This document shows positions 19,598 to 44,460 of a stretch of DNA of 64,000 bases, in pieces. A program made the position numbers and the translations under genes. The stretch lies in IMG/VR virus record IMGVR_UViG_3300025357_000008, positions 64,001 to 128,000 of that record, one strand, 5' to 3'. This DNA is from a virus. Taxonomy: Duplodnaviria > Caudoviricetes. How positions within the stretch are numbered: position 1 is the first letter of the stretch; every line of letters begins with the position of its first letter. The notes beneath the pieces are model-generated. The model had not been told where the DNA came from, did no database searches, and was given only the letters and a program-made list of their open reading frames with translations.

Positions 19598-19624
19598 GAG
19601 TAAGAACAATTAGAATAAGAAAAC

Positions 19625-19978
19625 ATGGCCGCAGGATATCAAAATCTCTACCTAGAACAAGGTGCATCTTTTGCATTTACAATCACATTAGATGATGTAT
19701 ATGGAGAGGCCTACTCTCTTTCTGGCGCCAATGTGTATAGTAAAATGAGGTATTCTTACTATACACCTAACGTAGCGGCAACTTTTGCCACAACAATTTC
19801 GGCAAATACAGGTCAAGTTACGTTTTCTTTAGACTCAGCCAATACGGCAAACATCACACCAGGTCGTTATGTATACGATGCTGTGCTTTCTTTCTACGCT
19901 GGTAGTGGTCAAGCGAACACAGTCATTAGAATCCTTGAAGGAATTGCAGAAGTTGCTCCTGGTGTAACATCGGGGTAA
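19625..19978 (+). CDS. Small Ig-like virion/fibre attachment protein
   Basis: LYLEQGASF...GRYVYD...RILEG...PGVT pattern seen in T4-like fibre loci; 117 aa. Confidence 0.65.
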   Translation: MAAGYQNLYLEQGASFAFTITLDDVYGEAYSLSGANVYSKMRYSYYTPNVAATFATTISANTGQVTFSLDSANTANITPGRYVYDAVLSFYAGSGQANTVIRILEGIAEVAPGVTSG

Positions 19979-19981
19979 CAT

Positions 19982-20206
19982 ATGGCAACTAATCCACCTT
20001 CATCAGTCAAAGTAACCATTGGTCAAAACACACCAAAAGTAACTGCGGTTTCTTATGGTGGTCTTCGTTCGCTTGCAGGTTCAACAGATTTGAATCTTGC
20101 CGGTGCTCAAGACGGTGACGTTATTGTTTACTCGCAATCACAGAAATTGTTTTACGTTGAAAATATTGGCAACGCTATTACATCTATTGATAACGGATAC
20201 TTTTAA
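19982..20206 (+). CDS. Small virion protein ending in DNGYF
   Basis: 74-aa ORF; TAATG overlap with the next gene. Confidence 0.65.
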   Translation: MATNPPSSVKVTIGQNTPKVTAVSYGGLRSLAGSTDLNLAGAQDGDVIVYSQSQKLFYVENIGNAITSIDNGYF

Positions 20207-22329
20207 TGTCATCAAATACAGTTAATGTACAGATACTAAGGTCCTATGGATCTTATCAACCAACAAACTTACTTGATGGGCAGTTAGCGTATTCCTTTCA
20301 ATCTAATACACTATACATCGGTACAAATAGTAATGGTATTGTTACTATTGGTGGTGTCACACCTTTAGCTCGTATTCAAACTGCCTTCAATGCGGCAAAT
20401 AGTTCAGGTGATTTTGCAAACTCTGCTTTCACACGTGCTAATCTTGCCTATGCGGCCGCTAATGCCGCTGGTTCATCAACAACAATAAACTTAGCATATC
20501 AAACTGCTAACTCGGCATTTAGTCAGGCTAATCTTGCCTATGCGGCCGCTAATGCCGCCGGTTCATCTACTACAACTAACAATGCTTATGCAACTGCTAA
20601 CTTAGCTTTTGCACAAGCGAATGCCGCTTTCAATGCGGCTAATAGTGGTGTAACTGCATCATATGCTTTTAATCAAGCTAACAGCGCATACAATCAAGCC
20701 AACGTAGCATTTGCGGCGGCTAATGCGGCAGGTTCTTCTACGACTGTAAATGCGGCCTTCTTAACTGCTAACTCTGCTTTTACACAATCAAATAACGCAT
20801 ATAACAAAGCAAACTCAGCAAACGTTCTAGCACAGTCTGCTTTTGGTGCCGCTAACGTAGGTAACACATTTGTTACTACTGGAGGTACTGTAACAGGTAA
20901 CGTAACAGTTTCAAACAATCTAACTGTATCTGGTAACTTATATGTACTAGGTAACTTAACTGCTATCAATACAACACAAGAAGAAACAAACGCACCGTTA
21001 ATCTTCTTAGCAAACAATAACACATCTTCTGATACAGTTGACATCGGTTTTGTTGGTAACTATAATGCAACAGGTAATGCGTTTACTGGTTTGTTTAGAA
21101 ACCCAACCCTTAAAGAGTTTATATTCTTTCAGAACTATGCATCACCTATTGGCTCAAACAATCTAATTAATATTAGTGACCCTAGTTTTGCATATGCAAA
21201 CGTGTACTCAAATTACTTCAAAGGTAATGTAATAAGTCACGGTGTAGATGTATTCTATTATTCTAACTCTGCTTTCTCAGTTGCAAATACGGCATCATCA
21301 AATACTGTAGCACTTCAAGGTATTGAAAATGCACAGAATACAAACATTGCGTATTCATGGACAACTGCAAATGCCGCTTTTGCAAATGCAAACTCTGCAA
21401 TTCTATATCAAACGGCAATTAGTAATTCGGTAAACAGTATTGCTGTTGGTGGTGCACCTGTACAGAACGCTCAAGTATGGTCTACACTAACTGTATCACA
21501 AGTCTTTGATGCAATTCTGTTCCCAACAATCGGTCCTACATATACAATACCTACAATATCTTTAAGCGGTACTGCTTCTGGTACTGTAGAAGTCGGTTCA
21601 ACAATCACTCAGACAATGACTCTGACTGGTACTAAGAACGATGCTGGTGCATTCCTTGCATTGTATATTCAACGTAATAGTGCGAACATTGCTACGATTA
21701 GTAACCCATCAGGTACAGCAACAACTAATATTGCATCTCAGTATGGCTATAGCGATCCTAACAATCAAAACTATTACTATACATTAAGTAATACAGATAC
21801 TGCTATTGCAACAACTGGTACATTCACATGGGCGGGTTACGGTAACTATAATGCTGGTGTTGCTAAGTTAACAAACAAAGGACAGACAGATGCAAACGGT
21901 GCTCAACTTCGTTCAACTGTTTATCCTCAAGCCGCTGGTTCAGCGTTCGGTTCAGGTTCTTATTCAGTAACTGGTATCTATCCATACTTTTGGGGTGTAT
22001 CATCAACGCAACCGACAGCCGCAAGTATTGCATCAGCAATTCAAGCAGGCACAGCAAACAAAGTACTTGCAGTTGGTTCAGGAACACTTACAATCACATT
22101 CAATGCAAGTTCTCAATACGTTTGGCTTGCAGTACAAAATAGCTATGCAACAAAGACAACATGGTATAATACTGCTCTAAATAACGGTAGTATTGGTGCA
22201 GGTCAATTTATATTGAGTCCTGTAACACAAGCAGTCACTTCACCAACATCTCTCTGGTCTGGCGTTAATTATAATATGTACATCTCTGGTTACTCAACGA
22301 CAACTAGCGGCTCAATACAGTTCTCATAA
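20206..22329 (+). CDS. Fibre protein (Mtd-N-like head, ANxA[FY] coiled coil, Ig-like C-terminus)
   Basis: VQILRS...LLDGQLAYSF..NTLYIG N-terminus; heptad repeats; YPYFWG domain. Confidence 0.7.
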   Translation: MSSNTVNVQILRSYGSYQPTNLLDGQLAYSFQSNTLYIGTNSNGIVTIGGVTPLARIQTAFNAANSSGDFANSAFTRANLAYAAANAAGSSTTINLAYQTANSAFSQANLAYAAANAAGSSTTTNNAYATANLAFAQANAAFNAANSGVTASYAFNQANSAYNQANVAFAAANAAGSSTTVNAAFLTANSAFTQSNNAYNKANSANVLAQSAFGAANVGNTFVTTGGTVTGNVTVSNNLTVSGNLYVLGNLTAINTTQEETNAPLIFLANNNTSSDTVDIGFVGNYNATGNAFTGLFRNPTLKEFIFFQNYASPIGSNNLINISDPSFAYANVYSNYFKGNVISHGVDVFYYSNSAFSVANTASSNTVALQGIENAQNTNIAYSWTTANAAFANANSAILYQTAISNSVNSIAVGGAPVQNAQVWSTLTVSQVFDAILFPTIGPTYTIPTISLSGTASGTVEVGSTITQTMTLTGTKNDAGAFLALYIQRNSANIATISNPSGTATTNIASQYGYSDPNNQNYYYTLSNTDTAIATTGTFTWAGYGNYNAGVAKLTNKGQTDANGAQLRSTVYPQAAGSAFGSGSYSVTGIYPYFWGVSSTQPTAASIASAIQAGTANKVLAVGSGTLTITFNASSQYVWLAVQNSYATKTTWYNTALNNGSIGAGQFILSPVTQAVTSPTSLWSGVNYNMYISGYSTTTSGSIQFS

Positions 22330-22332
22330 AAC

Positions 22333-25300
22333 ATGTCAATTATTCTAAACGACAATCTAAGTATACAGGCACCTAAGGGAGTTGATTCTCGTTTTGGCCC
22401 ATATGTAAATACAACTATTGCTTTATCGAGTGTTGGGTCTGCGGTTCGTTATCAAGGTTTAACAATTGGCATCAATTCTGCAAATGCAAGTGCGAATGGT
22501 GGTAATACTGTTATTGAGTATTGGTTTCGTGACGGTATTGCAGATGGTGATTTAACTTACAAAGTTGACCCTACTGCTAACTTAGCATATGCACAAGCTA
22601 ATGCCGCCTTTAATGCGGCCAATAGTTCAGGTGGCGGTAGTTCAGCGGCCGCTTTCAATCAAGCGAATGCCGCCTTTGCACAAGCTAATGCCGCCTTTGC
22701 ACAAGCAAACACAGGCTCTAGTTCTGCACCAGCTTTTAATCAAGCTAATGCCGCTTTCAGTCAAGCAAACGTAGCCTTTAATACTGCTAACTTAGCATAC
22801 ACACAAGCAAACTCAAGTTATACTGCACAAAATACAACAGCATCTTTTGCTAACGGTGCTTTTGTTGTTGCAAACTCGGGAGCATTATTTGCTAATAGTG
22901 CTTTTGCTACTGCAAATGCTTCCTATAATGCACAAAATATAACTGCTGGTTTCGCTAATGCCGCATATGCATATGCAAATACATTAGGAACAAATGAGGC
23001 ATCTGCATTTAATACTGCTAATGCCGCTTATGCACAAGCAAATACTGCTTATGCTAATTCAAATACGTTCATAACGTTTATCACAGGCGTTGAAACAAGT
23101 CAGAACAATAATATTTCTTCCGCATTTACTCAAGCTAATAATGCGGCCATATTTGCTAATGGTGCTTTCACAGTTGCCAATGCCGCTGTAAGACGTGCCG
23201 GTGATACAATGACTGGTAACTTAGTGATTGCTGGTGCTAATTTAACAGTAGGTACTGCACTTGCCGCTTATGCAAATGGTAACGTTGTAATCTCTCAAGC
23301 AACAGGACAAATTGTCCTTGCAGGAAATACATATGCAGGACATATGTTACCTGCCGCTAATGCTGATGGTACTGGTGTAGGATATGATTTAGGTTCCCCA
23401 ACAAGTCGTTGGAGAAAAATCTACGTTACTGGTACAACGATTGATATTGGTGGCGCTTTAATTCAAGCACAAGGTAATGCGATTTCACTAACCAGCGGAA
23501 CAGGCGCTACGTTTGCCGTTTCTGGTACAGGTGCAAACTCTGTAGGTTCTTTTGCAAGTTTAACAGCAAATGCCGGTATTGATTCAACTAATTCTGTTAG
23601 CGGTACAATTATCGTCACTGGTGGTGTTGGTATTTCTAATAATGCTTTCATCGGTGGTAATACAACTGTAGCATATCAATTAACTGCAAATCAACACACA
23701 TTCGGTATTGATGGTACAAGTCAGTACACAGCGGCCGCACCTTATGCATATTCTAATGCATCATTCTTGACTGCTAATAGTGCTTATACTGCACAGAATA
23801 TTACTGCTGGTTTTGCTAATGCCGCTTTCTTAGTCGCAAACAGTTCATTTGTTGCAGAAAACATTACTGCTTCGTTTGCCAACTCTGCTTATACACAAGC
23901 AAATGCGGCCTTTAATCAAGCAAATACGGCATCTTCTTTTGCTAATGGTTCGTTTACAACTGCAAATTCTGCATCTTCTAATACAGTAACATTGCAAGGT
24001 ATTGAAAATGTACAGAACACCAATATTACAGCATCGTTTGCACAAGCAAATGCATCTTACAATGCTCAAAATACAACTGCATCATTTGCAAATAGTGCCT
24101 TCGTAACAGCAAACTCTTCTTATTCTGCTCAAAACATAACTGCTGGTTTTGCAAACGCATCATATACGGCACAAAATACTACGGCAGGATTTGCCAACGG
24201 TGCATTTGTTACTGCTAATGCATCTTATGCGGCACAAAATATAACTGCTTCGTTTGCTAACAGCGCATATTCTTTTGCAAATTCAATTAATACTTATGCA
24301 TATGCCGCCTTTTCTTATGCAAATACATTAAATGCAGTAAACGTAGCATCAGCATGGAACACATCTAATGCCGCTTTCATTCAAGCAAATAGTGCTTTCA
24401 ATGCACAAAACATAACAGCAGGATTTGCAAATGCTTCTTACACGTTTGCTAATAGCATCAACATATATGCGTACTCTGCTTATGCGGCCGCTAATGTTGG
24501 TAATACATTCGTTTCAACTGGTGGTACAGTTGCTGGTTCTGTTGTTATCAGCACTGATTTACATGTCACTGGTAACTTGTATATTGCTGGTAATTCCACT
24601 TTTGTTAACGCAAATAATATATCAACAAACGATTCGATTATTTTAATTGGTACCAATAATACATCTAACGTTGTTGATTTGGGTATTGTCGGACACTTTA
24701 CAAATAACGGATATCAAAGAACTGGTTTTGTTCGTAATCACAATACAGGCATTTGGGGACTGTTCAGCAATCTAACATCAGAACCTTCAACAACAATCAA
24801 CTGGTCTGATGCCAATTTAATTTATGATAAGATTCAAACCGGTAACATTACGACTCCAGCAATATATGTTGCAGGTGTAGAACTTGGTGCTTATGCGAAT
24901 ACTGTTAATGCTTATTCTTATGCATCGTATGCATCTCAAAACATTACCGCATCGTTCGCTAACGGCGCTTTTGCTACTGCAAATGCATCATATGCATCTC
25001 AAAACATTACCGCATCGTTCGCTAACGGCGCTTTTGCTACTGCAAATGCTTCCTATAATGCACAGAACACTACCGCATCATTCGCTAATAGTGCCTTTGT
25101 AACAGCAAACGCATCATACAATTCGCAAAACACAACAGCATCTTTTGCTAACGGTGCATTTATAACTGCAAATGCATCATATAACTTTGCTAATAGTGTC
25201 AACACATATGCGTATGCCGCATTTGCAAAAGCAAATTCTCTCACAACTTCAGGCATTACAGTTGTTAATTTTACTGGTGACGGTGCAACTACATCATTTG

Positions 25301-26871
25301 CATTAGGCGTTACACCGTATTCTATCAATGCAACGTCTGTTAACTATAACGGTATTACATTACTAAGAAATAGTTATACATTGTCTGGTGCAAATATTGT
25401 CTTCTCAAGCCCACCTGCTAATACAGCATTAATTGAAGTTACAGTATCAACTCAAACTGTTTCAACTAATACTTCAATAAGTTCAGGTAATAACGGCAAC
25501 GTTCAATTTGCATTGGCAAATAATATAATTGGTTCTGATGCCAACTTTGTATATCTAACATCTAATACAACACTATTAGTACCAAACGCATATTATACCG
25601 GTAACGTAAGTATTCAAGGTAACTTGTATGTTAACGGTACTGTAACAACATTCAATAATGTAACTGTTAACACGACAGAAACAATTACAACAACACTAAC
25701 TCTTAGTGGTTTGAATGTCTATCCTTATATTACTTCAAGTTATGGTTTTTCTAACACAGTCAACACTTATGCATATGCATCATATTCAGCACAAAACATA
25801 ACTGCTGGTTTCGCTAATGCATCTTATACTGCACAAAATACAACAGCCTCATTCGCAAATAGTGCTTTTGGTCAAGCTAACTCTGCCGCTGTATTTGCAA
25901 ACGGTGCATTTACATTTGCTAACAGCGTAAATACCTATGCATATTCAGCATATGCTTTTGCAAATTCTGTTAACGTATACGCACGTGCCGCATTTGCACA
26001 AGACAATTTAGTATTCTCAGTTGCAAATTCTGCTGGTCTGTTTGCTAATGGTGCTTTTGTAACAGCAAACGCTTCTTTTATACAAGCAAATAATTCACTT
26101 GCAAACGTTGGTTCTTTAATAACTGTGAACGGTGTTTCGCAATTTGCGATAACGAATTCTCAAGTATCAACTTCAATAACTACTGGTGCATTAACAGTTG
26201 CTGGTGGTGTGGGTATTACTGGTAATACTTATGTCGGTGGTGATGTATTTGCAAATAATGGTGTCTATTCTGGCAATACATTCCAACCTGTGATAGGTTC
26301 ATTCAATGACGGTATTGTTATGGACTACGTTCAAGGTACAAATGGTATCGGTAGAATTTCAGTCGGTCCAAATGATTACATAACATTCTATACTGGCGGT
26401 GTCGGTACTACTCCTGTTGCAAACGTGTACAGTAACGGTGCGTTTACAAGTACAAACGTAACAGCAAGTAACAATATTACAACTAACACGTTTACTGCTA
26501 CTGGTCTTGTCACCATACAACAAACTACAGAAAATATTACGAACACTGGTAATCCTGGTTCTTCTGTGACTTATGATTTCAATGCTGGACCTACATACTA
26601 TAATACCGGTATGACACAAAACTGGACAGCAAACTTTACAAATGTACCAACAACACAAAATAAATCAGTTCTAGTTACTTTGATTAACAATCAAGGTAGC
26701 ACAGCATATTATCCAAGTACTATTCAAGTTAACGGAACAGGTTATACACCAAAATGGTTAGGCGGAACTTCTTACACTGGTAATGCAAGTCAATGGGATT
26801 TCCTCACATTTGCCATCATAAATATTGGTGGTACTATAACTGTTCTTGGTTCATACGCAACATATTATTAA
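22333..26871 (+). CDS. Long fibre protein with extensive ANxA[FY] heptad repeats
   Basis: 1512 aa; dozens of ANAAF/ANSAY/ANGAF units; TGALTVAGGVGI motifs. Confidence 0.75.
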   Translation: MSIILNDNLSIQAPKGVDSRFGPYVNTTIALSSVGSAVRYQGLTIGINSANASANGGNTVIEYWFRDGIADGDLTYKVDPTANLAYAQANAAFNAANSSGGGSSAAAFNQANAAFAQANAAFAQANTGSSSAPAFNQANAAFSQANVAFNTANLAYTQANSSYTAQNTTASFANGAFVVANSGALFANSAFATANASYNAQNITAGFANAAYAYANTLGTNEASAFNTANAAYAQANTAYANSNTFITFITGVETSQNNNISSAFTQANNAAIFANGAFTVANAAVRRAGDTMTGNLVIAGANLTVGTALAAYANGNVVISQATGQIVLAGNTYAGHMLPAANADGTGVGYDLGSPTSRWRKIYVTGTTIDIGGALIQAQGNAISLTSGTGATFAVSGTGANSVGSFASLTANAGIDSTNSVSGTIIVTGGVGISNNAFIGGNTTVAYQLTANQHTFGIDGTSQYTAAAPYAYSNASFLTANSAYTAQNITAGFANAAFLVANSSFVAENITASFANSAYTQANAAFNQANTASSFANGSFTTANSASSNTVTLQGIENVQNTNITASFAQANASYNAQNTTASFANSAFVTANSSYSAQNITAGFANASYTAQNTTAGFANGAFVTANASYAAQNITASFANSAYSFANSINTYAYAAFSYANTLNAVNVASAWNTSNAAFIQANSAFNAQNITAGFANASYTFANSINIYAYSAYAAANVGNTFVSTGGTVAGSVVISTDLHVTGNLYIAGNSTFVNANNISTNDSIILIGTNNTSNVVDLGIVGHFTNNGYQRTGFVRNHNTGIWGLFSNLTSEPSTTINWSDANLIYDKIQTGNITTPAIYVAGVELGAYANTVNAYSYASYASQNITASFANGAFATANASYASQNITASFANGAFATANASYNAQNTTASFANSAFVTANASYNSQNTTASFANGAFITANASYNFANSVNTYAYAAFAKANSLTTSGITVVNFTGDGATTSFALGVTPYSINATSVNYNGITLLRNSYTLSGANIVFSSPPANTALIEVTVSTQTVSTNTSISSGNNGNVQFALANNIIGSDANFVYLTSNTTLLVPNAYYTGNVSIQGNLYVNGTVTTFNNVTVNTTETITTTLTLSGLNVYPYITSSYGFSNTVNTYAYASYSAQNITAGFANASYTAQNTTASFANSAFGQANSAAVFANGAFTFANSVNTYAYSAYAFANSVNVYARAAFAQDNLVFSVANSAGLFANGAFVTANASFIQANNSLANVGSLITVNGVSQFAITNSQVSTSITTGALTVAGGVGITGNTYVGGDVFANNGVYSGNTFQPVIGSFNDGIVMDYVQGTNGIGRISVGPNDYITFYTGGVGTTPVANVYSNGAFTSTNVTASNNITTNTFTATGLVTIQQTTENITNTGNPGSSVTYDFNAGPTYYNTGMTQNWTANFTNVPTTQNKSVLVTLINNQGSTAYYPSTIQVNGTGYTPKWLGGTSYTGNASQWDFLTFAIINIGGTITVLGSYATYY
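24928..25049 (+). repeat. Tandem duplication, 63-nt period (59 nt identical)
   Basis: 24928-24986 equals 24991-25049; encodes YASQNITASFANGAFATANAS twice. Confidence 0.9.
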
Positions 26872-26873
26872 TT

Positions 26874-27908
26874 ATGAGTAGAATATCATCGTCAAGTGGC
26901 TTTGGGTTTTCAGGTGTTGGAATGGCTACTGCCAACTTAAAACCGATTCCAGTAACTGTTAATTATGTTTTGGTTGCCGGTGGTGGGTCAGGTGGTACTT
27001 TTGGTGGCGGTGGTGCTGGTGGTGTATTGTCTGGTCAAGTTACTTTTCCTAAAAAAGGTTCGACTGTAACAGTAACTATTGGTGGTGGAGGTGTTGCCGC
27101 AAATAATGGAGGACCTTTAGTATATCCTGGTAATGCTGGAGGTTATTATGTGAGAGGTACTAGCGGTTCAGGTTCTACAATATCGAATCCTTGCACATTA
27201 GGATCTGTAAGTTCAACAGGCGGTGGTGCCGGACGTGGTGGGTGGCCAGGTATGTGTTCAAGTTTTGGTGCATTAGGTGGAGGGTCTGGTGGTGGTGGTG
27301 CATCTGGCGGTAATCCTCAAAGTGCGCCCGGAGTACCAGGTCAAGGAAATCCTGGAGGTTCTGGAACCACCCCTTCAGGTATGTTTTTCGGTAGTGGTGG
27401 TGGAGCAGGAAGTGCAGGGACTTCAGGTGTAGGGGCAAATGGTGGTTCTGGACGAGTAATAACTATTATGGGTCCTAGTTCACCTGTAACAGTTGGTGGT
27501 GGAGGTGCGGCTGGCGGTTGCCAAGGGTGCAGACCAACATTTTATCCTAGTCCGTATTTTTTTTATACTGCAGGCGGTACAGGTGGCTCTGGTGGGGGCG
27601 GTAATGGTGGTAGTGGAGGTGTGCAAGGTGCATATGCGACTGGACGTACTGCTGGTACTGTAAATACTGGGGGTGGGGGTGGTGCTGGCGGATTTACAGG
27701 TTGGAACTTTATACAACCACCAACACATTCATGTTCTCCAAATGAGGAATGGTTTCCTGGTATGAATGGTGGTTCTGGTGTCGTCTTCATTTCAGCGAAT
27801 ACTGCAAAGAAAGGAACTGCCGGACCACCAACCGTTTTCACAACAGGAACTGACGGCCTAGGTAACACTTGGTTTAAATTCACTTCTTCTGGTACATATC
27901 GAGTATAA
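26874..27908 (+). CDS. Glycine-rich putative adhesin, paralog 1
   Basis: YVLVAGGGSGG, GGGAGG, NTGGGGG, GGSGVV motifs; ATG 26874 lies 2 nt after the upstream stop and is preferred over 26793. Confidence 0.72.
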   Translation: MSRISSSSGFGFSGVGMATANLKPIPVTVNYVLVAGGGSGGTFGGGGAGGVLSGQVTFPKKGSTVTVTIGGGGVAANNGGPLVYPGNAGGYYVRGTSGSGSTISNPCTLGSVSSTGGGAGRGGWPGMCSSFGALGGGSGGGGASGGNPQSAPGVPGQGNPGGSGTTPSGMFFGSGGGAGSAGTSGVGANGGSGRVITIMGPSSPVTVGGGGAAGGCQGCRPTFYPSPYFFYTAGGTGGSGGGGNGGSGGVQGAYATGRTAGTVNTGGGGGAGGFTGWNFIQPPTHSCSPNEEWFPGMNGGSGVVFISANTAKKGTAGPPTVFTTGTDGLGNTWFKFTSSGTYRV

Positions 27909-27910
27909 AA

Positions 27911-28132
27911 ATGTCACTAACTGTAATAGAACCCTTCAATTTAGATAATTCCGCAAGTTATATTGTTAGCAGTTTAAATGCTGGTAACACTATAAATGTG
28001 GGAACCACACTTTATCTAAATAATATAGCGGTTAGTAACACTAATAACTCTCTGACGGTTAACTCTGCGATGACAATTTCTGGTAATGTTTATGCGAATT
28101 TGGTAGGCTACGTTGACGGCGGCTCATTTTAA
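27911..28132 (+). CDS. Small virion protein ending in DGGSF
   Basis: 73-aa ORF tightly packed between fibre genes. Confidence 0.65.
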   Translation: MSLTVIEPFNLDNSASYIVSSLNAGNTINVGTTLYLNNIAVSNTNNSLTVNSAMTISGNVYANLVGYVDGGSF

Positions 28133-28159
28133 CATAAAACAACATAAAAGGAACATCAC

Positions 28160-30970
28160 ATGTCTGGTGGAGTCTCAAATTCAAGTATTCTAATTAAACG
28201 TTCCACGGCTACTGGTCGTCCTAGTTCGCTTAAATCCGGTGAGTTAGCTTACTCATATCTCTCAAACACAATCTTTATCGGTACATCCGATGGTACTAGC
28301 ACACTAAACGTTGGCGGTCAGTACTACACATCACAACTTGATTCAGCAACACCGTTAAACGTTGCGAACACAATCGTTAGACGAGATGCCGCAGGTAATT
28401 CGTATTTCGGTAACGTTGTTGTTTCTGGTTTCATTACCGGTACAATTCAAGGTACTTCTAATAACGCAACAGCACTTGCATCACCACAGAACTTTGGTAT
28501 TTCTGGTGGTGATATTACTGCTTCAAACATTGCTTTTAACGGTACTTCTGCTGTAATATTAAGCGCATCACTTAATAACGTTAGCGGTTTAAGTGGTGGT
28601 ACAGTCGGTTCTAATACTTCTATTCCTGTTATCACTTACGGTGCAAACGGTAGAATTTTAAACGTTTCTTCTGTAACAGTAAGTGCAAACTATCAACCCG
28701 CATTTGATTGGGCAAACTCTGCATACAATGCGGCAAATAGTTCAAGTAATACAGCATTTAGTGCTTATGCAAGAGCAAATGCCGCCTACAATCAAGCAAA
28801 TAGCGCATATTCTTTAGCAACCACAGCAGAATCAGATGCTCAGACAGGTATTACAAATGCGGCACAAGCATATTCAGCCGCTTGTACAGCACAACAACTT
28901 GCACAAAGTGCCTATACTGCACAAAATACAACAGCATCTTTTGCTAATAGCGCCTTTGGTCAAGCTAACTCTGCCGCTGTATTTGCTAACGGTGCGTTTG
29001 CATCAGCAAATGCTGTCCAGTTCACAATTACTGACGGCACACACTCTAATACATTCTATAGATCCGGTACATTAACAGTTACAGGAACTACTGGTGTAAC
29101 AGCAGTCGCTTCTGCAAACACATTAACATTTGGTACAGATAACACAGTATTACGTTCTAATACAACATCAGGTATCGGTGCTACACAAAATATTAATACT
29201 TCATTAAGTATAACAGGCAACTTGACAACAGGTAATATCATACCTTCGTCTGCTTACATGTCTATCGGTACATTTGCAAACCCTGTTCAAGAGTTGTATG
29301 TTTCTTCTAACTCATTGAATGTTGGTGGTATTTCTTTAAGCAATACAGGTAGTGTATTAACAATCGGTGGTGGTGTAACTGATTTAGCAGTAAGCACATC
29401 ATTTGGACCATTGTCTAACATTGCATCAGTCGCAAATACTGGTTACAACTTTGTTAATACTGGCGGTACAGTTAATGGTAACGTTAACATCGTTGGTAAC
29501 TTAGTAGTTCGTGGTACAACAACACAAGTCGATACTACAACAGAAACAACAACAGCAGGTACAATTGGTCTAGCCGCTAATAATACTGGTGACGTTATTG
29601 ATATCGGTCTATACGGAACATATGTTAACGGTACTACAAAACTTACCGGTTTGGTTAGAGGACCAGGAACAAGTAACTACTACTTGTTTAATAATATCAA
29701 TGCTACTGAACTTTCTGGTAACAACATTCCATCCGCAGACTTTACTGCCGCAAACTCAGCAACATTGTATGCTAACGTTGTTTCTTATCAAACATCATCT
29801 AGCGGCCAAGCAACATTCGGTTCTGTCGTATCAAATACTGCAATTGCTGTATCTTCTGGTGGTACTGGTGCCGCAACATTCTCTGCTGGTCAAATCTTAG
29901 TTGGTAACGGCACAGGTGCTCTACAAGTTCTTGCAAATACAGGTACTGCCGGTACATATGGTAATGCAAATACTATTGCAGTAACAACTACAGATGCTTA
30001 TGGTCGTGTTTCTGGCGTAACAAATACAGCAATATCCGGTCTAACAGTAACACAAGGTGGTACTGGTGCATCGTCATTCTCTGCTGGTCAGATTGTTATC
30101 GGAAACGGTTCTGGTGCATTACAAGTTCTTGCTAACACAGGAACTGCTGGTACATACGGTAATGCTAATACGATTGCAGTTACAACAACAGATGCATACG
30201 GACGTGTTTCTGGTATAACAGCAACACCAATTGCTATCACATCTGGTCAAATTACAAATACGACAGGTAATACAGGTACTTCAGTTGTCTTATCAGCTTC
30301 ACCAACATTAACTGGTACTACACAAGTTGCCACGATAGTTGCCGCAGTTGCTAATGCATCATCTGCTAATATTACAACAGCAAACGTTGGAACATTATAC
30401 GCTAATACAGTCTCAGTCGGTGGTGGTTTAACATATACCGCTTCAGGATTGTTTGCTGGATTCTCTTCTAATGCTAACAACTATCAGCAAGTTGTAATTG
30501 AGAACGCAAATACAGGTACTCAAGCATCAGCAGACTTCATTGTTTCTAACGGCATTTCAACTGATGGAGCCTTCTACGGTGACTTCGGTATGAACGGTCA
30601 GAACTTCTCTGGTTCTGGTTCATTGAATACTGCTAATACTGTTTACTTGTATGCCGCTAACGTTGATTTAGCAATCGGTACTACAACATCAAATGCTATT
30701 CACTTTGTTGTTAATAACGGTACAACAGATGCCGCCACAATTGCATCTAACGGTATGTTCTCATTAGCGACTGCTCTTGGTACTGCATACGGTGGTACTG
30801 GTGCTTCATCATTTACATCTGACGGTATTATCTACGGTAACGGTGGTGGTGCTCTACAAGCAACAGTAGCCGCTGGTACTTCAGACCAAGCATACACTAA
30901 CCAAGTGTTGACAGTTACTAACTCTGGTGTTCCAGTTTGGTCATCTGCTGTTGATGGAGGCACGTTCTAA
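28160..30970 (+). CDS. Fibre protein (Mtd-N-like head, GGTG repeats, C-terminal DGGTF)
   Basis: ILIKRS...LKSGELAYSY N-terminus; SD AAGGA upstream. Confidence 0.75.
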   Translation: MSGGVSNSSILIKRSTATGRPSSLKSGELAYSYLSNTIFIGTSDGTSTLNVGGQYYTSQLDSATPLNVANTIVRRDAAGNSYFGNVVVSGFITGTIQGTSNNATALASPQNFGISGGDITASNIAFNGTSAVILSASLNNVSGLSGGTVGSNTSIPVITYGANGRILNVSSVTVSANYQPAFDWANSAYNAANSSSNTAFSAYARANAAYNQANSAYSLATTAESDAQTGITNAAQAYSAACTAQQLAQSAYTAQNTTASFANSAFGQANSAAVFANGAFASANAVQFTITDGTHSNTFYRSGTLTVTGTTGVTAVASANTLTFGTDNTVLRSNTTSGIGATQNINTSLSITGNLTTGNIIPSSAYMSIGTFANPVQELYVSSNSLNVGGISLSNTGSVLTIGGGVTDLAVSTSFGPLSNIASVANTGYNFVNTGGTVNGNVNIVGNLVVRGTTTQVDTTTETTTAGTIGLAANNTGDVIDIGLYGTYVNGTTKLTGLVRGPGTSNYYLFNNINATELSGNNIPSADFTAANSATLYANVVSYQTSSSGQATFGSVVSNTAIAVSSGGTGAATFSAGQILVGNGTGALQVLANTGTAGTYGNANTIAVTTTDAYGRVSGVTNTAISGLTVTQGGTGASSFSAGQIVIGNGSGALQVLANTGTAGTYGNANTIAVTTTDAYGRVSGITATPIAITSGQITNTTGNTGTSVVLSASPTLTGTTQVATIVAAVANASSANITTANVGTLYANTVSVGGGLTYTASGLFAGFSSNANNYQQVVIENANTGTQASADFIVSNGISTDGAFYGDFGMNGQNFSGSGSLNTANTVYLYAANVDLAIGTTTSNAIHFVVNNGTTDAATIASNGMFSLATALGTAYGGTGASSFTSDGIIYGNGGGALQATVAAGTSDQAYTNQVLTVTNSGVPVWSSAVDGGTF
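29858..30230 (+). repeat. Intragenic 66-aa (198-nt period) duplication
   Basis: GGTGA..FSAGQI..GNG.GALQVLANTGTAGTYGNANTIAVTTTDAYGRVSG starts at 29858 and again at 30056. Confidence 0.85.
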
Positions 30971-30973
30971 ATA
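30966..30973 (+). promoter_or_regulatory. Late promoter core TCTAAATA overlapping a stop codon
   Basis: TAAATA at the gene boundary; SD AGGAG downstream. Confidence 0.5.
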
Positions 30974-30999
30974 GATTATTAATATATTAGGAGTTTGAA

Positions 31000-31566
31000 A
31001 TGGATAATGAAAAGTATTTGAGTGGTTATGTTGACATATTAAAAAATGCATCAAGTGAATTGCAAAATAATAATTTTACTTTACAAGCGAATTTGAAGTT
31101 TTTAGAGTCTGCTCTGAGAGAGCAAGGAGAGCAGACTCAAAAATACATGATGATGGTTGCCGATTATGAAAAAGAAAAAGCTGAAAAAAGTGACGATGAA
31201 AATGAAACATTAACACAATTAAAAGCTGACAATGAGAAATTGAAAAAAGAATTATCTGAAAAGAATGATTCTTTATCTCAAAGTCAAACGAAACTGGATA
31301 ATATTAAAATTGAATTGCGTGATGAAATTCAACGATTGAAAAATCAAGTTGAACATTTGAATCAAGTTAATGGTACACTAACGTCTGCACAAAATGAAAA
31401 TGCTCAATTAAAAACTGAGAACAGCAGTCTTAAAGGTGAAATTGAAAATTTGAAACAGACTATTGCAACAACAATTGCCGCTAACCAAACTCCACAAAAA
31501 ACGAAGTCGTTTGTTAAACAAAAGACTTTGCCGACACAATCAATAGAAGACGGTGGAAATTTCTAA
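31000..31566 (+). CDS. Charged coiled-coil protein ending in DGGNF
   Basis: E/K/Q/L-rich heptads, 188 aa; strong SD. Confidence 0.75.
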   Translation: MDNEKYLSGYVDILKNASSELQNNNFTLQANLKFLESALREQGEQTQKYMMMVADYEKEKAEKSDDENETLTQLKADNEKLKKELSEKNDSLSQSQTKLDNIKIELRDEIQRLKNQVEHLNQVNGTLTSAQNENAQLKTENSSLKGEIENLKQTIATTIAANQTPQKTKSFVKQKTLPTQSIEDGGNF

Positions 31567-31570
31567 GTAA

Positions 31571-33172
31571 ATGGCAAATACAATAGTAAAAATTAAAAAA
31601 TCAGGTGTAACTGGTAACGTACCAGGTTCACTAGCATTGGGTGAGTTAGCAATTAACTATACCGATGGATTATTGTATTTTGCTAATGCTACAGGTGTCA
31701 GAGCATTTTCGGCTAACGACTCAATTCTCGCAAACGCCGCCTTTGCACAAGCTAATGCCGCTTTCAATGCGGCTAATAGCAGTTCAGGTACAGCGGCCGC
31801 TTATAATCAAGCCAATGCCGCTTTTGCTCAAGCAAATAATATTTCTAGTTATGCTAATGCACAGATAGCAATTACACAAGGTGTTGATACAACTCAGAAT
31901 ACAAACATTAGTTCTGCTCAGTTGTTCGCTAACGGTGCATTTACTGCCGCTAATGCGGTTAATACTTACGCATATGCCGCTTATGCATCTCAAAATATTA
32001 CCGCTGGTTTTGCGAATGCCGCCTATACTTTAGCAAACACAGTAAATGTATACTCATATAGTGCATACGGTTTTGCAAATACAATTAACGTTTATGCTTA
32101 TAGTGCTTATAGCGCACAGAACATAACAGCAAGTTTTGCGAATGCCGCTTTCGCTCAAGCTAATGCGGCCTTTAATCAAGCCAATACAGGTTCAAGTTCT
32201 GCACCCGCTTTTAATCAAGCGAATGCCGCATTTATACAAGCAAACAATGCATATAATAAAGCAAATAGTGCTTTAGCAAATACTGGTGGTACTTTAACTG
32301 GTTCTCTAGGTATTACAGGTTCGTCATCAAACATTGTTGTTTCTCAGAGTGCGACAGCAAGTGATGTAACAAACACATTCAATCATTTATATACTTTAGG
32401 TTTATTCTCTGGTAATACCGACCAGTCAATACAAGTTGGTGCACAGAACTTCGCCAACACAGCAAATTCATCTACCGATTTTGCGTTGTACAATAATATT
32501 GGTACCGATACTAATAACTATATTGATTTAGGTATCACAAGTAAAGCATATAATACAACACTAAACGGTTTCACAGCATCACAACCAGGTGACGGATATC
32601 TATATTCTAACGGTGTTAACTTATTACTAGGTACATATACACCTGGTACTAATATGAAAGTGTTTATTGGTGGCTATACATCAGCAAACGTTTCTACAAC
32701 ATTTAATGCACCGAACACAGCATCAAGTTCAAATACTACAGGCACTCTGCTCGTTCAAGGTGGTGTAGGTGTAACTGGTAATGTATACTCAGATAAGATT
32801 TATACAAACGGACTATATTATGCCGCTAACGGTAACCCAATATCAACTGGTGGAGGTGGTGGCACAAGTTTAGTCTATACAGCCGCTACGACACCACCAG
32901 CATCAGGAAATAACAAAGGTGACCAGTGGTACAATACTGCAACTAATGTATTGTATGAATGGGCAACTGACGGTACAAGTTACTTCTGGTTAGACACAAT
33001 ATCACCAGTATATTCAAATACTGCAAACGTAAACATAATTACATCTGGTAATGTTAATACTAATGTGGTCTTTGCGAACTCGGTATATATAGGAACTCAA
33101 AATGCAAATTCATATATACAATCATACATTCAACAAAACACGATACATCCACTAATGTTTGTGGGTCTATAG
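31571..33172 (+). CDS. Fibre protein (Mtd-N-like head, GDQWY module, C-terminal HPLMF motif)
   Basis: VKIKKS...LALGELAINYTDG; heptads; ends IHPLMFVGL-TAG. Confidence 0.72.
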   Translation: MANTIVKIKKSGVTGNVPGSLALGELAINYTDGLLYFANATGVRAFSANDSILANAAFAQANAAFNAANSSSGTAAAYNQANAAFAQANNISSYANAQIAITQGVDTTQNTNISSAQLFANGAFTAANAVNTYAYAAYASQNITAGFANAAYTLANTVNVYSYSAYGFANTINVYAYSAYSAQNITASFANAAFAQANAAFNQANTGSSSAPAFNQANAAFIQANNAYNKANSALANTGGTLTGSLGITGSSSNIVVSQSATASDVTNTFNHLYTLGLFSGNTDQSIQVGAQNFANTANSSTDFALYNNIGTDTNNYIDLGITSKAYNTTLNGFTASQPGDGYLYSNGVNLLLGTYTPGTNMKVFIGGYTSANVSTTFNAPNTASSSNTTGTLLVQGGVGVTGNVYSDKIYTNGLYYAANGNPISTGGGGGTSLVYTAATTPPASGNNKGDQWYNTATNVLYEWATDGTSYFWLDTISPVYSNTANVNIITSGNVNTNVVFANSVYIGTQNANSYIQSYIQQNTIHPLMFVGL

Positions 33173-33181
33173 GGGATATCA

Positions 33182-33511
33182 ATGGCAGTTAATTATAAAA
33201 TTTTAGGACAATCTAATCCGGCCGCTAATACTACCACAACAGTATACACGGTTCCTGCGGCCACTCAAACTGTCGTTTCAACTATTCAAGTTTGCAATCT
33301 CTCACCAAACACATCAAGTTTTTCTATAGCGGCACAAAAAGCAGGTGCATCATTAGCAAACTCAATGTATCTTGCATATCAAACACCAATACCTGGTAAC
33401 GATTCAATCAATTACACATTAGGTGTAACTCTTGGTAATACAGATGTAGTATCTGTTTCAGCAAACACAGGGAACATAACATTCTCTTTATTCGGATCTG
33501 AACTTTCATAA
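33182..33511 (+). CDS. ~110-aa adaptor-like virion protein, copy 1
   Basis: YKILGQSNPAA..VYTVP..TVVSTIQVCN...FSLFGSEL; paralogous to 44461 and 49763. Confidence 0.75.
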   Translation: MAVNYKILGQSNPAANTTTTVYTVPAATQTVVSTIQVCNLSPNTSSFSIAAQKAGASLANSMYLAYQTPIPGNDSINYTLGVTLGNTDVVSVSANTGNITFSLFGSELS

Positions 33512-38577: not shown

Positions 38578-38910
38578 ATGGCATTTCCAACCTCACCCAC
38601 TAACGGTCAAACAGCAGTAGTAAATGGTATTTCATATACCTATAACTCTACGACTAATTCGTGGGGAAGAGTTGCTCAAAGTGTCCGAATCACATACACA
38701 GCGAGTCCTACACCACCTACAAATCCACTTCAAGGTGACCAGTGGTACAATAATACGACTGATGTGCTTTACGAATACACAAACGATACCGTTTCATCTT
38801 ATTGGTTAGACATACAGACACCAGCATTTGTTGGTTCAAACGCAACAACAGTTACAGGAGTATCGACAGGTAAATCACTTGCTATGTCGGTATTATTCGG
38901 AGCACAATAA
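38578..38910 (+). CDS. Short linker protein (FP..P.NGQ head, GDQWY module, GKSLAMSVLFG tail)
   Basis: Modules shared with 43900, 45711 and 31571. Confidence 0.7.
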   Translation: MAFPTSPTNGQTAVVNGISYTYNSTTNSWGRVAQSVRITYTASPTPPTNPLQGDQWYNNTTDVLYEYTNDTVSSYWLDIQTPAFVGSNATTVTGVSTGKSLAMSVLFGAQ

Positions 38911-39260
38911 TGACAACCCCTAATCTAGTTCAAATCAATTATCTAAACGGCAATACAGCAGTACAAAACGTTACGACAACTGCAACTGCTATTATTTCAA
39001 ATGCAAATAATTCAAATCAATTGTTTAGAATTGACAGTTTAGTTGTTGCAAATTATTCTACGAACGTTCAATATATTACCGCAGACATATACAGAAACAA
39101 TGTACCTTATATTATTGTTTCAAATATTTCAATGCCGGCAAATACAACCTTCGGTGTCTTTGATAGAATCTTCTATGCAAATGAAGGTGATGCAATTCGT
39201 CTAACAGCAAGTAACAACGGCACACTTCAAGCAGTTGCAACATACGAGGTAATGGGTTAA
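38910..39260 (+). CDS. ~115-aa adaptor-like virion protein, second class (TPNLV head)
   Basis: IDSLVVAN...NEGDAIRLTA...TYEVM; same size and cassette position as 33182. Confidence 0.7.
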   Translation: MTTPNLVQINYLNGNTAVQNVTTTATAIISNANNSNQLFRIDSLVVANYSTNVQYITADIYRNNVPYIIVSNISMPANTTFGVFDRIFYANEGDAIRLTASNNGTLQAVATYEVMG

Positions 39261-43899: not shown

Positions 43900-44451
43900 A
43901 TGTCATTTCCAGTCGCAACATCAAACGGTCAAACAGCATTAGTTAACGGCATTACGTATGTCTGGAACTCTTCTATTGGCACTTGGACTCGCCAACAGGC
44001 TTACCTTGGTCAAATAATTGTTTCTAATACTGCGCCGTCAATTAACGTTGTCGGTACTCAATGGTATTCTCAGACTGACGATGTTATCTATGAGTGGACT
44101 ACAAGCAACGGAAGTAACTTCTTCTGGTTAGATATCTCATCTTCTGCGGTAGTTTCAAACGTTGCGTTGACACCATTTCTAACAAGTACTATTGCAAATA
44201 GCGCAAACACATTTGCCAATACAGCAAACGCATTAGTTCTTGCTCAAGAAACGCTTTCAACGGCAAACGTTTCAAATTACGCAAATAATGTTGTCGCAAA
44301 TTTAGCAAACGGTATATATGCATCGGCAACATTAAATGTTAATTCTGTTAATGCAAATACATTGAGTATCGGAACTCAAAATGCTAATACATACATATTA
44401 TCATACATGCAACAAAATTCTTTCAACCCATTCTTCTTAGCGGGAATGTAG
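43900..44451 (+). CDS. Linker protein (FP..NGQ head, QWY module, NPFFL tail)
   Basis: C-terminal IGTQNAN.YI.SY.QQN segment shared with 31571; ends in TAG. Confidence 0.7.
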   Translation: MSFPVATSNGQTALVNGITYVWNSSIGTWTRQQAYLGQIIVSNTAPSINVVGTQWYSQTDDVIYEWTTSNGSNFFWLDISSSAVVSNVALTPFLTSTIANSANTFANTANALVLAQETLSTANVSNYANNVVANLANGIYASATLNVNSVNANTLSIGTQNANTYILSYMQQNSFNPFFLAGM

Positions 44452-44460
44452 AGGTACATT

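What the first reader, a model, noticed from the sequence alone, without database searches (positions are those of the whole stretch)
19982..33172. C-terminal D[GN]GxF motif always precedes an Mtd-N-like head: daisy-chained fibres
Seen: four ORFs end in the same motif (19982 IDNGYF, 27911 VDGGSF, 28160 VDGGTF, 31000 EDGGNF). The three ORFs that start with an I.[KR]S....P..L..G[EQ]LA..[YF] head (20206, 28160, 31571) each directly follow one of them. 28160 carries both the head and the tail. 31571 carries the head and the HPLMF tail of the adaptor system. Inference: a second plug-and-socket pair that allows serial assembly 27911 > 28160 > 31571 > adaptor > LamG tip, giving a long fibre built from several gene products.
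Basis: partly seen in the sequence, partly recalled or inferred. Interest (0 to 1): 0.7.

Follow-up and report, generated by a model that had tools for sequence, protein, structure and literature searches.

The report
Serial T4-type joints between fibre proteins
This uncultured T4-like phage encodes its tail fibres as separate pieces that most likely clip end to end through the joint that links gp36 to gp37 in phage T4, used here three or four times, so fibre wiring can largely be read from gene order.

Summary
In the whole 170-kb phage genome only four ORFs end in D[GN]GxF (about 0.02 expected). All four lie in the fibre block. All three genes with the N-terminal I-x-(K/R)-S...P..L..G(E/Q)LA head directly follow one of them.

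The same adjacency holds in 180 of 195 head genes on 80 metagenomic viral contigs. It also holds in cultured phages: Limnohabitans DC31, Ralstonia PY059YO380, Synechococcus S-CBS2, Colwellia 9A and T4 itself. T4 gp36 ends in DFGYY, and gp37 starts with a head that matches the profile (hhalign 91.6%, E 8e-7). gp36 is known to bind the N-terminal region of gp37.

A 3+3 complex model scored 0.67 against 0.00 for the best control. It puts the last 9-12 residues of 19982 onto the conserved head residues of 20206.

- The pair is the T4 gp36-gp37 joint reused, not a new one.
- The tail of 28160 faces the coiled-coil protein 31000, which has no head. The likely chain is 27911 > 28160 > 31000 > 31571.
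- The 'Mtd-N' label is unproven.

The other chain starts next to a T5 p132/LtfC-like collar protein (19625).

This scan has reported the same joint in at least eight other phage genomes. It is a new variant of a known design.

The parts
19625..19978 (+). 117-aa T5 p132 / DT57C LtfC-like beta-sandwich protein. It is the likely collar or docking platform for fibre chain 1.
   Evidence: Pfam PF23926 LtfC at 28.5 bits against a cut-off of 27. A family profile (A6) hits T5 p132 7qg9_R at E 1.2e-6 and DT57C LtfC 8hqz_Q at E 3.6e-5. The AF2 model has pLDDT 87. Its top Foldseek hits are 8hqz (E 1.8e-9, TMq 0.75-0.79) and 7qg9. A homologue of about 113 aa precedes the first tail gene in most related loci.
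19982..20206 (+). 74-aa anchor protein with a tail. Its C-terminal peptide (residues 63-74, bases 20168-20203) ends in DNGYF (20189-20203).
   Evidence: Translation. It belongs to a family of 66-95-aa proteins in which D70, G72 and F74 are invariant (alignment A3). In the complex model, residues 63-64 and 66-74 form the interface.
20206..22329 (+). 707-aa fibre segment with an H1-type N-terminal head (about residues 3-49, bases 20212-20352) followed by a helical repeat shaft. It has no tail.
   Evidence: Alignment A4 has R12, S13, P19, L22, G25, A28, S30 and G39 invariant. The AF2 monomer shows four strands then a long helix, pLDDT 79. Head residues 3-14, 19-20, 23 and 26-28 contact the tail in the model.
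27911..28132 (+). 73-aa protein ending in VDGGSF (tail at 28115-28129). It is the first piece of chain 2.
   Evidence: Translation. A close homologue in L079 occupies the same position before a 931-aa protein that carries both head and tail.
28160..30970 (+). 936-aa fibre segment with both a head (about residues 8-53, bases 28181-28318) and a tail (...PVWSSAVDGGTF, 30953-30967).
   Evidence: Translation. phrog_15769 matches both the head and the C-terminal 85 aa. Homologous head+tail fibres of about 420-1050 aa occur in most loci.
31000..31566 (+). 188-aa coiled-coil connector without a head. Its N-terminus is of the conserved E-K-Y-x-N-Y-Y-I-E type and its tail is EDGGNF (31549-31563). By position it corresponds to T4 gp36.
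   Evidence: Only coiled-coil Pfam hits. In relatives a 170-250-aa protein with the same N-terminus always follows the head+tail fibre and ends in (K)DGG(S/T)F before a gp37-like head.
31571..33172 (+). 533-aa fibre segment with a gp37-like (H2) head (about residues 3-48, bases 31577-31714). It ends in ...HPLMFVGL.
   Evidence: tblastn of the head finds gp37 N-termini of T4-like coliphages at 44-46% identity over residues 6-42, with weak E-values. It shares phrog_3442, 17885, 35830 and 11583 with the T4 gp37 N-terminus.

Best explanation
The tail (D-x-G-x-F/Y at the free C-terminus) and the head (an N-terminal beta domain of about 45 residues, I-x-(K/R)-(K/R)-S...P..L..G-E-L-A) are the two halves of a non-covalent joint between consecutive trimeric fibre segments. 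This is the same joint that connects gp36 to gp37 in the T4 long tail fibre. The last 9-12 residues of the upstream, virion-proximal protein add a strand alongside the first strand of the downstream head. The terminal aromatic residue sits against the conserved Pro and Ala. In this phage the joint is used in series.

Chain 1 is the p132/LtfC-like collar protein 19625, then the 74-aa anchor 19982, then fibre 20206. Chain 2 is 27911, then 28160, then the coiled-coil connector 31000, then 31571, and then probably the 109-aa adaptor and the LamG tip.

Shown: the motifs, their strict terminal position, their adjacency here and in many other phages, the homology of the head to the gp37 N-terminus, and selection at the protein level.

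Inferred: actual binding (from T4 genetics and biochemistry plus one complex model), the 28160-31000 joint, the attachment of 19982 to 19625, and the idea that tail/head subtypes set the order of assembly.
For: (1) The motifs are rare and strictly terminal. There are 4 tails against 0.02 expected. In the related loci D[GA]G.F occurs 3 times internally in 285,490 residues, against about 250 times at C-termini. The head lies at residues 1-50 in 149 of the 150 best database matches.

(2) Adjacency. 180 of 195 head genes in 80 IMG/VR loci plus the window follow a tail gene, and most exceptions carry variants such as DGGTY. In whole-genome pattern scans of T4, DC31, PY059YO380, S-CBS2 and Colwellia 9A, all six genuine ORFs ending in D-x-G-x-F/Y are directly followed by a head gene.

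(3) T4. gp36 ends in QDFGYY, and gp37 starts with IQFKRS...GELAIN. 118 of 120 listed gp36 homologues end in D[FY]Gx[YF]. The head profile against gp37 residues 5-51 gives hhalign probability 91.6%, E 8.3e-7. [quoted passage not shown]

(4) The tail sits on at least eight unrelated protein families: 66-95-aa anchors, 177-aa anchors, 61-92-aa head+tail proteins, long fibres, coiled coils, gp36, S-CBS2 gp050 and 9A gene 52.

(5) Complex model of 3x 20206(1-90) with 3x 19982. The score was 0.67 and the best of 3 controls 0.00. That mark was reached by 58 of 80 solved complexes and 2 of 110 mismatched pairs. The runs agree in at least 93% of contacts and the partner's pLDDT is at least 69. The interface is tail residues 63-74 with head residues 3-14, 19-20, 23 and 26-28, in the register 9-70, 11-72, 13-74.

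(6) One 1740-aa protein (P0007) has the head fused internally, right after ...LNGNTTI.
Against: No experiment or solved structure shows the joint at residue level, not even for T4. The recent T4 preprint resolves the distal rod only at low resolution. The complex model is one pair only, with my own alignments, so its calibration holds only roughly.

The loci were collected through the head and many are related, so the adjacency counts are not independent events.

The tail of 28160 is followed by a protein without a head. The tail therefore either has a second kind of partner or is not always a plug for the next gene.

Some head genes lack an upstream tail: S-CAM9 follows a fibre with an S74-type end, ACG-2014f follows a homing endonuclease, and Motura TF1-TF2 has none.

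Proteins that carry both a compatible head and tail could in principle self-polymerise. What prevents this is only guessed at (tail subtypes).
Confidence: 0.78

Rival explanations
1. The chain is branched or differently ordered. The coiled-coil protein 31000 would then be a side branch, whisker or assembly strut rather than an in-line segment. The tails of 28160 and 31000 would compete for, or share, the head of 31571, or the tail of 28160 would dock somewhere else.
For: 31000 has no head, so nothing shown here says how it joins 28160. Both 28160 and 31000 carry DGGxF tails upstream of the single head of 31571. Branched fibre systems exist, for example LtfA/LtfB of DT57C (PMC10713586).
Against: The junction between a fibre ending PVWxxxxDGG(Q/T)F and a protein starting E-K-Y-x-N-Y-Y-I-E is conserved in about 60 of 248 tail junctions. 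Those tails have their own preference, Q at position 4 in 22 of 35, which suggests a cognate partner. Gene order follows physical order in the T4 fibre (PMC3004832).
Confidence: 0.15
2. The tail is a shared signal for something other than the next protein, such as an assembly chaperone, a common hub on the baseplate or self-trimerisation. In that case its position next to head genes reflects only inherited synteny.
For: Many of the loci are syntenic relatives, so adjacency could be inherited. No binding experiment exists for these proteins.
Against: The tail occurs on at least eight unrelated protein families, always directly before a head or the coiled-coil N-terminus, in myoviruses and siphoviruses alike. 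In T4 the tail-bearing gp36 is known to bind the gp37 N-terminal region. The model puts the tail on the invariant head residues, with controls at 0.00. No conserved chaperone gene accompanies the module.
Confidence: 0.05
3. The motif is a by-product at the DNA level. It would be either a Shine-Dalgarno-like GGAGG encoded by Asp-Gly-Gly just upstream of the next start, or a conserved recombination linker for module swapping.
For: GAT-GGA-GGx contains GGAGG. In 86 of 178 non-redundant junctions the next start lies within 5 nt of the stop.
Against: All synonymous codons are used: Asp GAT 106 and GAC 71; first Gly GGT 51, GGC 48, GGA 30, GGG 6, plus Ala and Ser codons; second Gly GGA 90, GGC 37, GGT 34, GGG 17; Phe TTT 97 and TTC 76. 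An SD-like core is present in only 28 of 86 close junctions and 23 of 79 distant ones. In 79 of 178 junctions the gap exceeds 20 nt. T4's GATTTCGGCTATTAT has no SD core. No DNA repeat links the three junctions of the window.
Confidence: 0.02

Closest known systems
Phage T4 long tail fibre, distal half: the joint between the C-terminus of gp36 and the N-terminal region of gp37
   Same: The downstream N-terminal head is homologous (hhalign 91.6%; shared PHROGs). The upstream protein ends in D-x-G-x-aromatic (DFGYY). The genes are adjacent and in the same order. Trimeric segments join non-covalently, and gp36 binds the gp37 N-terminal region (PMC3004832).
   Different: T4 uses the joint once, whereas this phage uses it three times, or four if the 28160-31000 junction counts. 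The tail-bearing proteins here are not gp36 homologues: there is no PF03903 match and no profile similarity. They are tiny anchors, a 936-aa fibre and a coiled coil. No gp35-type knee-cap was found. The tail variant is DGGxF or DNGYF rather than D(F/Y)Gx(Y/F).
T5 p132 / DT57C LtfC collar with the LtfA (pb1) N-terminus
   Same: 19625 is a sequence and fold homologue of p132/LtfC. It is followed by the gene of a fibre-anchoring polypeptide, as LtfC is essential for lateral fibre attachment in DT57C (PMC10713586).
   Different: Here the collar homologue sits in a T4-like myovirus. The piece that would dock on it is a separate protein of 74 aa (177 or about 400 aa in relatives). That protein passes the fibre on through a tail/head joint, rather than being the N-terminus of the fibre itself. 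Ring stoichiometry and strand donation are not tested.
Bordetella phage BPP-1 Mtd N-terminal domain (Pfam Mtd_N) and streptococcal prophage HylP N-terminus
   Same: Both are small N-terminal beta domains of trimeric receptor-binding proteins with a similar R-(G/S)...G-E sequence pattern (the pattern is from my own knowledge). Weak structural superposition aligns N-terminus to N-terminus: Mtd 1yu0 Z 3.4, rmsd 3.0 A over 43 residues; HylP 6x3m Z 3.1.
   Different: There is no Pfam match at E up to 0.1, no PDB sequence match, and no Foldseek hit better than E 0.4. I know of no reported upstream D-x-G-x-F partner for Mtd.
Branched tailspike and fibre systems assembled through N-terminal adaptor domains (CBA120 TSP1-4, G7C gp63.1/gp66). 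This comparison rests on my own knowledge and was not tested here.
   Same: Several receptor-binding proteins encoded by neighbouring genes are assembled into one appendage through dedicated terminal modules.
   Different: Those systems dock N-terminal globular domains side by side to make branches. Here a C-terminal peptide meets the next N-terminus, giving an end-to-end chain.

Membership tests
T4 gp36-gp37-type fibre joint | The downstream protein starts with a head homologous to the gp37 N-terminus | tested here: met
   hhalign of head alignment A4 against T4 gp37 residues 5-51 gives probability 91.6%, E 8.3e-7. The 31571 head and the gp37 N-terminus share phrog_3442, 17885, 35830 and 11583. 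tblastn hits fall on gp37 N-termini.
T4 gp36-gp37-type fibre joint | The upstream protein ends in D-x-G-x-(F/Y) at the free C-terminus, directly before the head gene | tested here: met
   Window: DNGYF, DGGSF and DGGNF precede heads. T4, JS98 and CC31 gp36 end in DFGYY or DFGTY. 118 of 120 gp36 homologues end in D[FY]Gx[YF].
T4 gp36-gp37-type fibre joint | The upstream protein belongs to the gp36 family (Pfam PF03903) | tested here: not met
   No PF03903 hit for 19982, 27911, 28160 or 31000. hhalign of the small tail family against gp36 gives probability 0.3%. No PF03903 match in the genome, though that search's control did not ring. Membership therefore holds for the joint, not for the connector protein.
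T4 gp36-gp37-type fibre joint | The tail physically docks on the head | tested here: inconclusive
   Prediction only. Score 0.67 against a best control of 0.00. The mark was reached by 58 of 80 solved complexes and 2 of 110 mismatched pairs. Contact agreement is at least 93% and the partner's pLDDT at least 69. The interface consists of the conserved residues. The model supports binding but does not show it.
Mtd_N (major tropism determinant N-terminal domain) | Match to the Pfam family model | tested here: not met
   No Pfam family at E up to 0.1 for 20206, 28160 or the head region of 31571.
Mtd_N (major tropism determinant N-terminal domain) | Fold of the Mtd N-terminal domain | tested here: inconclusive
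   VIA-align gives 1yu0 Z 3.4, rmsd 3.0 A, 43 residues (model 8-51 against Mtd 5-49), which is within the range of chance for such a small domain. Foldseek gives E 2.2.
LtfC / p132 lateral-fibre collar protein (PF23926), for 19625 | Sequence match to the family and to the solved members | tested here: met
   PF23926 at 28.5 bits against a cut-off of 27. Profile A6 against 7qg9_R p132 gives E 1.2e-6, and against 8hqz_Q LtfC E 3.6e-5.
LtfC / p132 lateral-fibre collar protein (PF23926), for 19625 | Single-domain beta-sandwich fold of LtfC | tested here: met
   The AF2 model has pLDDT 87.4. Foldseek gives 8hqz_Q/T at E 1.8e-9 with TMq 0.75-0.79 and 7qg9 at E 5e-9; the next unrelated hit is at E 2e-5.
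LtfC / p132 lateral-fibre collar protein (PF23926), for 19625 | Forms a dodecameric ring whose sheets are extended by strands of the fibre N-terminus | not testable with these tools
   Known for DT57C (PMC10713586).

The most novel reading that the evidence does not exclude
The joint may be a portable wiring code, readable from sequence, with cognate subtypes that fix the order of assembly. Tails of type D(A/S/N)G(F/Y/E)F go with IQILRSY...GELAYSF heads. DGG(S/T/N)F tails go with ILIKRS and gp37-like heads. DGGQF tails go with the helical N-terminus of the coiled-coil connector. Proteins of 61-92 aa that consist only of a head and a tail would then act as converters between subtypes. The whole chain would hang from a T5-type LtfC/p132 collar that a T4-like myovirus has adopted. 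If so, fibre architecture, including length and segment order, could be predicted and re-wired from gene sequence across some 18,000 protein clusters.
Probability: 0.35. Interest if true: 0.7.

Novelty: new variant of a known kind. Interest (0 to 1): 0.55.

Why it matters
Multi-subunit tail fibres are known from T4. However, I found no residue-level description of the gp36-gp37 joint in the papers I could search, and no solved structure of it.

The results here indicate three things:
- The joint is a five-residue C-terminal tag plus a head of about 45 residues.
- It is strictly terminal and selected at the protein level.
- It is spread over thousands of phage protein clusters and reused in series.

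This gives a practical rule for annotating the long runs of 'hypothetical' fibre genes in aquatic and other uncultured phages. It allows predictions of which pieces touch and in what order. It also suggests natural break points for swapping receptor-binding modules between phages of laboratory strains.

In addition, the results flag mis-annotations (S-CBS2 gp051 is labelled 'head decoration protein') and suggest a T5-like collar in a T4-like virion.

Tried and rejected
- Megablast of 19600-33600 against cultured phages found no match.
- tblastn of 28160 found only Limnohabitans phage DC31.
- Pfam gave no Mtd_N or any other family for the heads or the small tail proteins.
- The head profile against PDB sequences gave only chance hits at E 0.7 or worse.
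- Foldseek of the head model gave nothing better than E 0.4. The VIA re-ranking was dominated by the helix, with Mtd and HylP at Z about 3.
- The small tail family against gp36 showed no similarity beyond the terminal peptide.
- phmmer of 19625 alone against the PDB gave only spurious PPR hits. The family profile was needed.
- The Shine-Dalgarno and DNA-linker explanation was rejected on codon usage and gap lengths. The window's junctions also share no DNA repeats.
- I looked for internal heads or tails as signs of fusion in the loci. There were none, apart from one database protein, P0007.
- The extra pattern matches in T4 and Colwellia 9A proved to be out of frame or not at ORF ends.
- The PF03903 search of the phage's own genome found nothing, but the tool's control did not ring, so absence is not shown.
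- Literature searches for a published description of the motif pair found none. This was a limited search and does not prove absence.
- The single complex job went to 19982 with 20206. The pairs 27911-28160, 31000-31571, 28160-31000 and 19625-19982 could not be modelled.

Full report
**Context.** The window is bases 64,001-128,000 of a 170,261-bp uncultured virus record, rated complete by CheckV. It encodes T4-type gp6, gp8, gp15, large terminase, sheath, portal and scaffold proteins. Its portal is only 52.6% identical to that of the nearest cultured phages, which are Synechococcus myoviruses. Between the baseplate genes and gp15 lies a block of about 35 kb of fibre genes, all on the + strand.

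**Observation.** They are the only 4 of 843 ORFs of 40 aa or more in the genome that end in D[GN]G.F. Amino-acid composition predicts 0.023. The N-termini of 20206, 28160 and 31571 share the pattern I-x-(K/R)-S, five or six residues, P..L..G(E/Q)LA..(Y/F). Each of the three follows a tail-bearing ORF, with gaps of -1, 27 and 4 nt. Shuffling gene order reaches this in 44 of 200,000 trials, or 230 of 200,000 within the fibre block alone. The fourth tail, on 28160, is followed by 31000, a coiled-coil protein with no head. So 'always' means three of four.

**Relatives.** A scan of IMG/VR with the head alignment gave 80 loci.
- In these loci plus the window, 180 of 195 head genes that have an upstream neighbour follow a gene ending in [DN][GASCN]G.F.
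- Several of the 15 exceptions end in DGGTY, DGGSY or xDDTF, or have a small helical gene inserted.
- Of 248 tail genes with a downstream neighbour, 180 precede a head.
- About 60 precede a coiled-coil protein of 170-250 aa with a conserved N-terminus (E-K-Y-x-N-Y-Y-I-E), the type of 31000.
- The rest precede small helical proteins.
- The pentapeptide is strictly terminal: D[GA]G.F occurs 3 times internally in 285,490 residues, against about 250 times at C-termini. The head never occurs internally in these loci.
- The loci were fetched through the head and many are related, so these counts are not independent events. Even so, the tail sits on clearly unrelated proteins.

**Cultured phages and T4.** A tblastn search with the head of 31571 weakly hit the N-termini of gp37, the long tail fibre distal subunit, in many T4-like coliphages.
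- In T4 itself gp36 ends ...QDFGYY and gp37 begins with IQFKRS...P...L..GELAIN. JS98 and CC31 are alike.
- Of 120 listed gp36 homologues, 118 end in D[FY]Gx[YF].
- The head profile matches T4 gp37 residues 5-51 with hhalign probability 91.6%, E 8.3e-7. The 31571 head and the gp37 N-terminus hit the same PHROG families.
- The T4 literature states that trimeric gp36 binds the N-terminal region of gp37 as the first step of distal half-fibre assembly (PMC3004832).
- The same tail-then-head order appears in four other cultured phages:
  - Limnohabitans phage DC31: a 590-aa head protein ending in DGGTY, then a 119-aa head protein.
  - Ralstonia phage PY059YO380: 90 aa ending in DGGNF, then a 467-aa head protein ending in DGGTF, then a 227-aa head protein.
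  - Synechococcus siphovirus S-CBS2: gp050 ending in SGGSF, then gp051 with a head and DGGTF, then gp052 with a head.
  - Colwellia phage 9A: 162 aa ending in DGGVF, then a 379-aa head protein.
- As a test not biased by the head, I scanned those four genomes and T4 for GAY-NNN-GGN-NNN-TWY-stop. All six genuine ORF ends found are directly followed by a head gene. The other matches are out of frame or are not stops.

**Protein or DNA?** Asp-Gly-Gly can spell GGAGG, so I tested whether the motif is a ribosome-binding site. All synonymous codons are used at the conserved positions. An SD-like core is present in only about a third of junctions. In 79 of 178 non-redundant junctions the next start is more than 20 nt away. 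No DNA repeat links the junctions of the window. Selection therefore acts on the peptide.

**Docking model.** The single complex job folded three copies of 20206(1-90) with three copies of 19982, each with an alignment of relatives (A4, A3).
- The score was 0.67 and the best of three controls 0.00. That mark was reached by 58 of 80 solved complexes and 2 of 110 mismatched pairs. The counts hold only roughly here, because my own alignments were used and the job differs from the calibration.
- The runs agree in at least 93% of contacts, and the partner's pLDDT is at least 69.
- The confident interface is tail residues 63-64 and 66-74 with head residues 3-14, 19-20, 23 and 26-28. These are the residues that define the two motifs.
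- The lowest-error pairs (9-70, 11-72, 13-74) suggest that the tail lies as a parallel strand beside the first head strand, with F74 near P19 and A28.
- The model supports binding but does not show it. No like complex was found among solved structures.

**The head.** Alone, the head is predicted as four short strands (10-13, 27-30, 35-39, 45-49) followed by a long helix, with pLDDT 79. The 'Mtd-N-like' label is not borne out by Pfam. By fold it is only weakly supported: Mtd at Z 3.4 and HylP at Z 3.1, both aligned N-terminus to N-terminus. The head family is very large. 18,522 clusters at 50% identity match at E up to 1e-3, and 2,156 at E up to 1e-10. The head sits at residues 1-50 in 149 of the best 150. 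The exception is a 1740-aa protein in which the head follows ...LNGNTTI, a likely fusion of the two halves.

**Anchoring.** 19625 is a homologue of T5 p132 and DT57C LtfC, by Pfam, by profile against the solved chains and by fold. In DT57C, twelve LtfC copies form a collar, and the N-terminal strands of the lateral fibre protein extend its sheets (PMC10713586). In most related loci a homologue of about 113 aa directly precedes the first tail protein. That protein can be 66-95, 177 or about 400 aa long, but its N-terminus is conserved. I infer that 19982 is a free-standing fibre anchor: its N-terminus sits on the collar protein and its C-terminal tail plugs into the head of 20206. This step is untested.

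**Anatomy in this window.**
- Chain 1: 19625 (collar), then 19982 (anchor, DNGYF), then 20206 (707 aa, with a head and no tail).
- Chain 2: 27911 (73 aa, DGGSF), then 28160 (936 aa, head and DGGTF), then 31000 (188 aa, coiled coil, DGGNF), then 31571 (533 aa, gp37-like head).
- 31571 ends in HPLMFVGL and is followed by a 109-aa protein and a 1547-aa LamG protein. That continuation belongs to another finding and was not tested here.
- By position, 31000 is the counterpart of gp36 and 31571 the counterpart of gp37.
- Tail variants track the class of the next N-terminus among non-redundant junctions:
  - D(A/S)G(F/Y/E)F before IQILRSY heads: Ala or Ser at position 2 in 35 of 44.
  - DGG plus a polar residue plus F before ILIKRS heads and gp37-like heads.
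  - DGGQF before the coiled-coil protein: 22 of 35.
- The four window junctions fit this pattern.
- Many relatives carry proteins of 61-92 aa that are only a head plus a tail. These would convert the first tail type into the second.
- Whether these variants confer specificity or merely reflect ancestry is open.

**Novelty.** Multi-protein fibres and the gp36-gp37 joint are textbook knowledge. In the papers I could search I found no description of the terminal peptide/head pair as a general, serial joint. These included the T4 tail review, the gp34 structure paper, RBPseg, a 2026 T4 cryo-EM preprint that resolves the distal rod only at low resolution, and a Klebsiella RBP atlas. The search was limited. 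After I had reached this reading, I found that earlier reports of this scan describe the same joint in at least eight other phage genomes. I class the finding as a new variant of a known kind.

**Limits.**
- No experiment was done, and only one modelled pair.
- Relatives were sampled through the head.
- The 28160-31000 and 19625-19982 contacts are inferred from conserved gene order only.
- Some head genes elsewhere lack an upstream tail, so the head can also be served by other partners.

Noticed in passing
window 20360-26100, 28700-29010, 31700-32290: The shafts of 20206, 22333, 28160 and 31571 share degenerate 21-nt (7-aa) repeats of the type A-N-x-A-F-x-x. There are up to 20 copies per family, and an 88%-identical 98-nt stretch is shared between 25825-25922 and 28913-29010. 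The AF2 model of 20206 predicts a long helix there.
   Followed up: partly
window 16644-19580: This 978-aa fibre protein has a Peptidase_S74 intramolecular-chaperone domain at residues 877-940 (E 4e-11), so its mature C-terminus is probably made by self-cleavage. Fibres with the same kind of end precede the collar gene in related loci.
   Followed up: partly
window 26793-27908: The longest ORF overlaps the end of 22333 by 79 nt and starts with an odd Cys/Trp-rich stretch. The real start is probably the Met about 43 codons in (MATANLKPIP...). The protein matches phrog_2295, and the window's other Gly-rich protein (50102) matches Pfam Gly_rich_2.
   Followed up: no
window 31571-38154 (also 38578-43873, 43900-45707, 49406-51214): 31571 ends in HPLMFVGL and is followed by a 109-aa protein and a 1547-aa LamG-type protein. 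Relatives show the same order: a short gp37-like-head protein, then a protein of about 108 aa, then a large tip. This looks like a second, different joint type, and was not examined here.
   Followed up: no
L088 (Synechococcus phage S-CBS2, NC_015463) 1810-2934: gp051 is annotated 'head decoration protein', but it carries both the fibre head and a DGGTF tail and sits between two fibre genes. It is probably a tail-fibre segment.
   Followed up: partly
L084 (Synechococcus phage ACG-2014f) 2395-2769: A putative homing endonuclease gene lies directly upstream of a gene of about 3,970 aa that starts with the head. Here no tail gene precedes the head.
   Followed up: no
protein P0007 (1740 aa), residues about 395-475: This database protein has the head at residue 431, directly after ...YGHLNGNTTI. 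It looks like a natural fusion of a tail-bearing and a head-bearing segment.
   Followed up: partly
L090 (Brevundimonas phage Papperlapapp) 3001-3117: A head-like stretch (VVIRYKRT...P..LEPLEIALNETDG) lies inside the C-terminal part of a very large 'lectin-like' protein. This is another possible covalently continuous version of the joint.
   Followed up: no
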